Below, one piece after another: positions 8,544-9,734 of a DNA stretch of 24,208 nt. Below the pieces are notes generated by a model. The model had not been told where the DNA came from. It ran no database searches and saw nothing but the letters and a program-made list of their open reading frames with translations. The position numbers and the translations under genes are program-made. Each line of letters begins with the position of its first letter. Position 1 is the stretch's first letter. The stretch is taken from positions 1-24,208 of the forward strand of contig CASERY010000015.1 in assembly GCA_949290385.1 (NCBI GenBank). Reading direction: 5' to 3'. This DNA is from an uncultured bacterium (GTDB lineage: Bacteria; Verrucomicrobiota; Lentisphaeria; Victivallales; UBA1829).

Positions 8544-9734
8544 TTAACTCTTCCTTCTGGAGTGTCTATAGAGAAAGAAAAGCTCCAGTGTCATACAAAC
8601 GGGAAATATTGTTGCTGCCAGTAAACCGTTTTTCAGGTCTTCTCCTGTAACTTGTGCTACTTTCCCTACTATTGCAGGGCCTACTGTTGCACCAAGATCT
8701 CCTGCCAATGCCAAAAATGCAAACATGGCGGTTCCACCGGTAGGACATTTTCGGGAAGAAAGACTGATTGTTCCAGGCCACATGATTCCAACGGCAAGTC
8801 CGCAGAGAGCACATCCGATCAATCCCAATATTGCCAAAGATGCCAAAGACGCCAATAAATAACACACGGCAGCTAGCAAACCGCATAAAAGCATTGTTTT
8901 GACCAAATTCAGTTTATCACTCATCTTCCCATACAGCATACGGGCAATTCCCATAAACGCTGCAAAAAGACACGGACCAGCCAGATCGCCAATCAATTTT
9001 GAAACTTTCAGTGCCGATTCTGTAAAAGCTGAAGCCCATTGACACATCGAAGCTTCAGATGAACCAGCACAAATCATTAAAAATATCATCATCCAGAACA
9101 TGGGAACACTCAGCAACTGACGGATATTCATACGCTTGTCGTCTTCAACAAGTTTTTCAATGGGACAGCTGATAAAATTTATGGCATTATACAAGGGGAT
9201 TAATGCCCAAAGCATCGTCATGATTTTCCAATGTTCTATGCCAAATATAGCAAAAAATAAAGTTGACCCCAGAATTACACTTACTGCTCCCCAACAATAA
9301 AAGGAATGCAATAAACTCATGATACCGTCCTTATTTTCAAAAGGACATGCTTCAACAATCGGACTTAACAGAACTTCGATTAAACCGCTTCCAATAGCAT
9401 AAAGTACCACCGATATTAAAATTCCAGTCAATGGATCCAACAATATATCCGGTAAAATCGTCAGAGACAATAGACCTGCCGATGACAAAACCTGAGAGGC
9501 AATCACACAGAGTCGATATCCAATTTTATCAGCAAATTTTGCAGCTGCTATATCTACAAGCAACTGAGTCAAATAAAAAGTCAGCGGAATCAAAGCGATC
9601 TTTTCAAGATGAACACCGTAGGTCCCTTTGAAAGTCAAGAAGAGTAAAGGCGTGAAATTTGCCTATATGGCCTGTGTTACAAATCCGAGATAACAGGCTG
9701 TCAATGTTTTTTTATAGTTTTTCTGCTTGGACAT
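8544..9734 (-). CDS. MFS transporter interrupted by one in-frame TAG at codon 24 (9663-9665); a pseudogene under the standard code, or a TAG read-through CDS
   Basis: AAGGAGA lies 5 nt before the ATG at 9734. Translation gives MSKQKNYKKTLTACYLGFVTQAI-TAG-ANFTPLLFLTFKGTYGV..., which continues in the same frame into the tracked 364-aa multi-TM ORF (8544..9638). There is no frameshift or other stop. Terminal stop is TAA. Confidence 0.8.

What the first reader, a model, noticed from the sequence alone, without database searches (positions are those of the whole stretch)
9663..9665. MFS transporter: TAG at codon 24 removes the N-terminal helix if read as stop
The upstream 23 codons (MSKQKNYKKTLTACYLGFVTQAI) carry their own AAGGAGA RBS. 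They read straight through into ANFTPLLFLTFKGTYG, a contiguous MFS N-terminus. If TAG terminates, the remaining ORF must restart at a TTG (9638) with no RBS and loses part of the first TM region.
Basis: seen in the sequence. Interest (0 to 1): 0.6.

Follow-up and report, generated by a model that had tools for sequence, protein, structure and literature searches.

The report
Amber nonsense mutation in MFS transporter
A gut Victivallales bacterium carries a real premature TAG stop in a transporter gene and a second one in the regulator gene next to it, most likely an ordinary recent knockout of a two-gene module rather than unusual decoding.

Summary
On the minus strand an MFS gene starts at ATG 9734 behind an AAGGAGA ribosome-binding site. 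It runs 23 codons, hits TAG at 9665-9663, and continues in frame to TAA 8544, 396 codons in all.

All 23 upstream residues match full-length 396-aa homologues. The TAG column is Ser in 70 of 79 related loci, and TCG in the closest relatives, so this is a single C>A change.

The AraC-family regulator immediately upstream (10796-9888) also has one in-frame TAG, at 10055-10053. Relatives have Gln (CAG) there, a C>T change. Reading through it restores the full DNA-binding domain.

- **No recoding:** the two columns are different amino acids, TAG ends another gene in the window, and no suppressor tRNA gene lies in the window.
- **No sequencing error:** every one of seven other metagenome assemblies (99.4-99.7% identical) has the TAG wherever it covers the site. 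No intact allele of this species was found.

Best reading: recent loss-of-function mutations inactivating a conserved regulator-transporter pair.

One oddity remains. Variation among TAG-bearing strains is still mostly synonymous. Recombination and a recent spread of the TAG segment probably explain this, but residual function through readthrough is not excluded.

The parts
8544..9734 (-). MFS_1 transporter gene, 396 codons, interrupted at codon 24 by TAG. The conceptual product is 88-91% identical to intact 396-aa proteins of Victivallales/Lentisphaeria MAGs.
   Evidence: Translation; Pfam MFS_1 at 82.8 bits; homologue list.
9663..9665 (-). In-frame amber codon TAG at codon 24. The homologous codon is TCG (Ser) in the closest relatives, so this is a single C>A transversion.
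   Evidence: Codon alignment with L002. Across 79 related loci the column is Ser 70, Thr 7, Ala 1, and TAG only in L001, another copy of this allele.
9739..9745 (-). Shine-Dalgarno-like AAGGAGA, 4 nt upstream of the ATG at 9734-9732. It is conserved in intact relatives.
   Evidence: Sequence; alignment A1.
9636..9638 (-). TTG, the first possible restart codon after the TAG (codon 33). It has no ribosome-binding site and is used by gene callers to produce a 364-aa truncated product.
   Evidence: ORF list; sequence; 364-aa gene calls in other assemblies.
9888..10796 (-). AraC-family regulator gene (cupin sensor domain plus HTH_18), 302 codons, directly upstream on the same strand and interrupted at codon 248.
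   Evidence: The truncated product matches HTH_18 positions 1-33 of 80 (20.8 bits, below the cut-off). The read-through product matches 1-79 of 80 (70.1 bits).
10053..10055 (-). Second in-frame amber codon, AraC codon 248. The homologous codon is CAG/CAA (Gln) in relatives, so this is a single C>T transition.
   Evidence: Gln in 9 of 9 intact relatives matched.

Best explanation
The TAG is a genuine amber nonsense mutation, TCG Ser24 to TAG, in an otherwise intact MFS transporter gene of a gut Victivallales (Lentisphaeria) species. The AraC-type regulator gene immediately upstream, which forms a conserved two-gene module with the transporter, carries an independent amber mutation, CAG Gln248 to TAG, that removes its second helix-turn-helix.

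Read with the standard code, the regulator loses DNA binding. The transporter yields only a 23-residue peptide, or at best an 11-helix fragment that lacks helix 1. The module is therefore switched off and both genes are young pseudogenes.

**Shown:** both lesions, their ancestral codons, their presence in every sampled strain of the species, and the absence of long-term relaxed selection.

**Inferred:** the products are non-functional; the TAG-bearing segment spread recently through a recombining population; and one hit made the other gene dispensable, or loss of the module was itself favoured.
For: - **Conserved N-terminus.** The first 23 residues and helix 1 are conserved in homologues. The TAG column is Ser/Thr/Ala, never a stop, and is TCG in the closest relatives L002-L008.
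- **Second lesion.** The AraC TAG column is Gln in all 9 intact relatives matched. Read-through restores the complete HTH_18 domain.
- **Different amino acids.** The two TAGs stand for Ser and Gln, and each is one base change from the relatives' codon. That is the pattern of mutations, not of a codon with a new meaning.
- **Linked genes.** The two hits are in adjacent, functionally linked genes. AraC plus MFS is a conserved pair in 35 related loci. No other gene among about 18 in the window has an in-frame TAG. The flotillin-like gene 1426-3123 ends in TAG.
- **Real bases.** Seven other assemblies (ERZ17292901-905, ERZ11466792, ERR14721045) are 99.4-99.7% identical. They carry the MFS TAG in 6 of 6 and the AraC TAG in 6 of 6 that cover each site.
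- **Recent.** dN/dS against intact relatives is about 0.13, the same as between intact relatives. Branch counts on the TAG lineage are 19S:13N (MFS) and 17S:17N (AraC), against 22S:13N and 24S:14N on the sister branch.
- **Neutral-looking core.** In the 638 bp around and between the TAGs (9451-10088) the private variants are 1 synonymous, 2 non-synonymous (V264A, G257E) and one frameshift, A7 to A8 at about 9713 in L090.
- **Helix 1 is lost.** The model of an intact homologue has helix 1 at residues 7-39.
Against: - **Constraint signal.** Among TAG-bearing strains the two genes show 12 synonymous to 7 non-synonymous changes, like the intact flanking genes (26:13). Unconstrained sequence should give 22-34% synonymous. 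For the first count of 10:4, binomial P was 0.0001-0.005. If all this variation arose after the TAGs, the genes would still be under selection.
- **No intact allele.** None above 91% amino-acid identity was found among about 15 billion proteins, so the source of the supposed pre-TAG variation was not directly observed.
- **Both lesions are amber.** Chance of this is 0.11-0.14.
- **Untested genome.** Only 24 kb of the genome could be inspected, so a suppressor tRNA elsewhere cannot be ruled out.
Confidence: 0.8

Rival explanations
1. The amber codons are decoded at a useful rate in this species, by a suppressor tRNA or by unusually leaky termination. Full-length regulator and transporter are still made, and both genes remain functional.
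For: Polymorphism among TAG-bearing haplotypes is mostly synonymous, 12S:7N, indistinguishable from intact neighbours at 26S:13N and unlike the neutral expectation. Both lesions are TAG. All sampled strains keep both ORFs otherwise open with no further stops. No intact allele is known in the species.
Against: The TAG columns are Ser and Gln, so no single inserted residue restores both. The two hits are confined to one two-gene module, not scattered as a genome-wide suppressor would allow. TAG is used as a normal stop in the window. The only tRNA gene in the window is tRNA-Pro(CGG).

Recombination within the lineage is demonstrated by four-gamete violations at 8557/9446 and 11216/11489, which offers a simpler source for the synonymous excess. 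Variants closest to the TAGs are non-synonymous or frameshifting. No report of such decoding in Victivallales was found.
Confidence: 0.08
2. After termination at codon 24, ribosomes re-initiate at TTG 9638 or another nearby codon. This makes a 364-residue transporter lacking helix 1 that keeps some activity. That would explain continued constraint on the downstream part only.
For: TTG lies 8 codons after the TAG, within the range where bacterial re-initiation after early nonsense codons is known (established knowledge from lacI and T4 rIIB amber mutants). One strain (L090) has a frameshift in the upstream 23 codons, as if they were dispensable. Most synonymous-biased variation in the MFS lies downstream of codon 33.
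Against: There is no ribosome-binding site before the TTG. Not one of the other homologues examined starts there. Helix 1 (residues 7-39 in the model) is among the most conserved stretches (invariant columns). An 11-helix MFS would have inverted topology. This idea also does not rescue the regulator.
Confidence: 0.05
3. TAG encodes pyrrolysine or is otherwise reassigned in this organism.
For: There are two in-frame TAGs within 400 bp in otherwise well-conserved genes.
Against: Homologues have ordinary Ser and Gln codons at these columns, and no homologue has TAG. The proteins are not methylamine methyltransferases. No pyl genes or tRNA-Pyl lie in the window. TAG ends the flotillin-like gene. 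Treating TAG as sense lengthens no other real gene meaningfully.
Confidence: 0.02
4. The TAG is a sequencing or assembly error in this MAG contig.
For: The window is a metagenome-assembled contig, and read support could not be inspected.
Against: The same base is present in six other assemblies that cover the site. They were made with different assemblers (k87_ contig names; one Logan assembly) and differ from the window at dozens of other positions.
Confidence: 0.01

Closest known systems
Nonsense-mutation pseudogenes in bacterial genomes (young pseudogenes with a single premature stop)
   Same: There is a single-base change to a stop at a conserved codon, the rest of the ORF is intact, full-length orthologues exist in sister species, and a functionally linked neighbour gene is hit as well.
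   Different: Both lesions are found in every sampled strain of the species, yet the genes show no excess of non-synonymous polymorphism overall. This suggests a very recent spread or some residual function.
Major Facilitator Superfamily, Pfam MFS_1 (PF07690); one source labels relatives 'fucose permease'
   Same: The full-length domain matches. An intact homologue is predicted to have 12 helices in a 6+6 arrangement.
   Different: The substrate is unknown, and no NCBIfam equivalog reaches its cut-off (best 25 bits). This copy is interrupted in helix 1.
AraC/XylS family regulators with an N-terminal cupin sensor domain (for example AraC, RhaS, MelR)
   Same: It has a Cupin_2/AraC_binding N-terminal domain plus a C-terminal HTH_18 with two helix-turn-helix units, and it sits directly upstream of a transporter gene.
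   Different: It is truncated between the two HTH units. No equivalog was assigned, and the effector is unknown.
Amber-recoded systems: pyrrolysine decoding, and TAG-to-Gln recoding in gut phages (genetic code 15)
   Same: An in-frame TAG lies inside conserved coding sequence.
   Different: Here the TAGs replace two different residues. They are absent from all homologues, are limited to two adjacent genes of a bacterial chromosome fragment, and TAG still ends a gene in the window.

Membership tests
MFS_1 transporter (PF07690) | Domain match above Pfam's gathering score across the whole profile | tested here: met
   82.8 bits against a cut-off of 33.4; residues 16-353 match profile positions 4-347 of 347, with X at the TAG.
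MFS_1 transporter (PF07690) | Twelve transmembrane helices in two bundles of six | tested here: met
   AlphaFold model of intact homologue P0001 (90% identical): 12 long helices, the first at residues 7-39. Confidence is moderate (pLDDT 65, pTM 0.65).
MFS_1 transporter (PF07690) | Uninterrupted reading frame encoding all helices | tested here: not met
   TAG at codon 24. The longest standard-code ORF starts at codon 33.
AraC/XylS regulator | Complete C-terminal HTH_18 domain with two helix-turn-helix units | tested here: not met
   The standard-code product stops after profile position 33 of 80 (20.8 bits, below the 33.6 cut-off). The domain is complete (70.1 bits) only if the TAG is read through.
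Pseudogene by nonsense mutation | Premature stop at a position that is a sense codon in full-length orthologues, one base change away | tested here: met
   TCG to TAG, and CAG to TAG.
Pseudogene by nonsense mutation | Relaxed selection or further lesions after the stop | tested here: inconclusive
   Overall polymorphism is 12S:7N, similar to intact genes. The 638-bp core near the TAGs has 1S:2N plus a frameshift in L090. Branch counts are not significantly relaxed.
Pyrrolysine decoding | TAG conserved at the same column in homologues; pylT and pylSBCD genes present | tested here: not met
   Homologues have Ser or Gln codons at these columns. No pyl genes or tRNA-CUA lie in the 24-kb window. 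The rest of the genome could not be examined.
Global TAG reassignment (code-15-like) | TAG absent as a terminator and frequent in frame across genes | tested here: not met
   TAG ends the flotillin-like gene 1426-3123. Only two of about 18 genes contain an in-frame TAG. Treating TAG as sense adds little ORF length.
Amber suppression by a suppressor tRNA | A tRNA gene with anticodon CUA in the genome | not testable with these tools
   Only this contig and short related contigs are available. The window holds only tRNA-Pro(CGG). The species was not among the genome contigs representatives at more than 91% identity.

The most novel reading that the evidence does not exclude
This Victivallales species tolerates amber codons because TAG is partly decoded, by a suppressor tRNA or by weak termination. 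The AraC regulator and MFS transporter would then still be expressed at a low level and maintained by selection. This would be a natural, species-wide case of amber suppression in a gut bacterium, visible as synonymous-biased polymorphism in TAG-interrupted genes.
Probability: 0.07. Interest if true: 0.6.

Novelty: already known. Interest (0 to 1): 0.15.

Why it matters
This mainly matters for annotation. The 364-aa MFS and 247-aa AraC gene calls in public records are fragments of nonsense-interrupted genes and should be flagged as pseudogenes.

Biologically it is a small example of a regulator-transporter module being switched off across a whole gut species. That could reflect selection to lose an uptake system.

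It would become interesting only if the synonymous-biased polymorphism proved to arise after the TAGs. That would imply natural amber read-through in this lineage.

Tried and rejected
- **More TAG-allele copies.** A pattern search of JGI metagenome contigs for the TAG-bearing 23-mer gave two hits, both unrelated chance matches of 24 bp.
- **The window's own species.** It did not turn up in genome contigs; the best locus is 91% identical at the protein level. The rest of its genome could therefore not be screened for a suppressor tRNA or pyl genes.
- **Exact look-up of the TTG-start ORF.** This failed because the tool translates TTG as Leu while records hold Met. The contig was recovered through cluster members instead (P0123).
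- **Hydropathy scan.** A Kyte-Doolittle scan at threshold 1.4 did not flag helix 1, which is only moderately hydrophobic. The structure model was used instead.
- **Global recoding.** ORF statistics under TAG-, TGA- and TAA-sense codes do not support it.
- **Introgression from the sister species.** Some minor alleles match L002/L006 (4 of 12), but this is not clearly more than homoplasy would give, about 2 expected by my own estimate. Inconclusive.
- **Literature.** Searches for stop-codon recoding or suppression in Victivallales found nothing relevant.
- **Variant table.** The first version was contaminated by secondary alignments in the flotillin repeat. It was redone with one alignment per contig.

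Full report
**Observation**

- ATG 9734-9732 is preceded by AAGGAGA (9745-9739).
- Twenty-three codons (MSKQKNYKKTLTACYLGFVTQAI) lead to TAG at 9665-9663.
- The same frame then continues for 372 more codons to TAA at 8546-8544.
- Under the standard code the longest ORF starts at TTG 9638 (364 aa), with no purine-rich stretch before it.
- With X at the TAG, the conceptual 396-residue protein matches Pfam MFS_1 over residues 16-353 and profile positions 4-347 of 347.

**Homologues**

A search of the large protein collection returned thousands of relatives.
- The best hits are 396-aa proteins from Lentisphaeria/Victivallales MAGs, 82-90% identical. Many have an N-terminus identical to the window's 23 residues, followed by Ser.
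- Across 79 related genomic loci the TAG column is Ser 70, Thr 7, Ala 1. TAG occurs only in a near-identical copy of the window.
- All the closest relatives have TCG, so the TAG is one C>A change away.
- A model of a 90%-identical intact homologue (pLDDT 65, pTM 0.65) has 12 long helices, with helix 1 at residues 7-39. Termination at codon 24 or a restart at codon 33 would remove it.

**A second TAG next door**

The gene directly upstream on the same strand (10796-9888) encodes an AraC-family regulator with a cupin sensor domain.
- Its standard-code product stops at TAG 10055-10053 after 247 residues and matches only positions 1-33 of the 80-position HTH_18 profile.
- Reading through gives a 302-residue protein that matches positions 1-79 at 70 bits.
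- Relatives have Gln (CAG or CAA) at that column, a C>T change.
- AraC plus MFS is a conserved pair in 35 related loci from Victivallales and from Clostridia.

**Is TAG recoded?**

The evidence says no.
- The two TAG columns correspond to different amino acids.
- No homologue has TAG at either column.
- No other gene among about 18 in the window has an in-frame TAG.
- The flotillin-like gene ends in TAG.
- ORF statistics under a TAG-sense code add almost nothing.
- The only RNA gene found is tRNA-Pro(CGG).
- No pyl genes appear among the Pfam hits.
- Both lesions being amber has a chance probability of 0.11-0.14.

**Is it an error?**

No. The window is an entire NCBI MAG contig. Seven further contigs come from other assemblies: ERZ17292901-905, ERZ11466792, and a Logan assembly of ERR14721045. 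They are 99.4-99.7% identical to the window and differ from it at dozens of sites. The MFS TAG is present in all six that cover it, and the AraC TAG in all six that cover it. No intact allele closer than 91% was found.

**Age of the lesions**

dN/dS between the window and intact relatives is about 0.13 for both genes, the same as among intact relatives. The table gives parsimony counts on the TAG-lineage branch and on the sister branch.

| Gene | TAG-lineage branch (S:N) | Sister branch (S:N) |
|---|---|---|
| MFS | 19:13 | 22:13 |
| AraC | 17:17 | 24:14 |

The lesions are therefore young relative to the split from the sister species (dS about 0.34).

**An unexpected signal**

Among the TAG-bearing haplotypes the polymorphism pattern looks constrained.

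| Genes | Synonymous | Non-synonymous | Other |
|---|---|---|---|
| Two interrupted genes | 12 | 7 | one frameshift |
| Intact flanking genes | 26 | 13 | none |

Unconstrained sequence should give only 22-34% synonymous. For the earlier count of 10:4, binomial P was 0.0001-0.005.

Taken at face value this would mean the genes are still under purifying selection. Three observations favour a simpler reading.
- **Recombination within the lineage is evident.** All four allele combinations occur at sites 8557/9446 and at 11216/11489. Variation a few hundred bases from the TAGs can therefore be older than the TAGs.
- **The core looks neutral.** In the 638-bp core around and between the TAGs (9451-10088) the variants are one synonymous (9909), two non-synonymous (V264A at 10006, G257E at 10027) and an A7-to-A8 frameshift in L090.
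- **The two hits fall in one functional module.** A genome-wide suppressor would allow in-frame TAGs to be scattered.

I therefore read the pattern as a recent spread of a TAG-bearing segment through a recombining species. I cannot prove it, so I keep read-through as a minority rival.

**Mechanism, committed**

These are loss-of-function amber mutations. The regulator lacks its second helix-turn-helix and cannot bind DNA. The transporter is terminated inside helix 1. The module is off. Either the first hit made the second neutral, or loss of this uptake system was favoured. My confidence is about 0.8.

**Comparison with known things**

This is the ordinary class of young nonsense pseudogenes. 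The genes belong by sequence to MFS_1 and AraC/XylS but fail the intact-ORF criterion. Pyrrolysine decoding and code-15-like recoding fail their defining tests. No NCBIfam equivalog assigns a substrate.

**Verdict**

The explanation is ordinary, interest is low (0.15), and the kind of thing is already known. The most novel reading not excluded is natural amber read-through that keeps both genes alive (probability about 0.07).

Noticed in passing
window 10053-10055 (minus strand), gene 9888-10796: The AraC-family regulator directly upstream of the MFS gene has its own in-frame TAG, at codon 248 (Gln CAG in relatives). Read-through restores the full HTH_18 domain. It is present in six of six other assemblies that cover it.
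   Followed up: yes
loci L022-L082 versus window 8544-10796: The AraC+MFS pair also occurs in many Clostridia MAGs (Oscillospiraceae, Acutalibacteraceae, Faecousia) and in a Thomasclavelia spiroformis isolate. MFS identity is 71-77% and AraC identity 54-61%. This suggests cross-phylum transfer of the module among gut bacteria.
   Followed up: partly
window 8006-10909 versus L006 2839-5718: Similarity to the sister species covers only AraC, MFS and tRNA-Pro(CGG) (8006-8084). The flanks on both sides are unrelated, so the module plus the tRNA gene sits in a different genomic context in the two species.
   Followed up: partly
L090 about 316-323 (window about 9706-9713): One TAG-bearing assembly (Logan, ERR14721045) has A8 instead of A7 in codons 8-10 of the MFS leader, a frameshift upstream of the TAG. 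It is either a further lesion or a homopolymer error.
   Followed up: partly
window 2122-2417 (inside the flotillin-like gene 1426-3123): A 66-bp tandem repeat of 4.5 copies, 89% matching, encodes an Ala/Glu-rich stretch. Seven synonymous differences to L091 cluster here, which hints at gene conversion among the repeats.
   Followed up: no
window 10797-11514: This 718-bp gap between AraC and LacI has no convincing ORF and no Rfam match. It is the most polymorphic stretch among strains, with about 19 SNPs and 2 indels.
   Followed up: partly
window 8014: There is a C/A polymorphism inside the tRNA-Pro(CGG) gene, at position 9 of the tRNA. Three other assemblies carry A.
   Followed up: no
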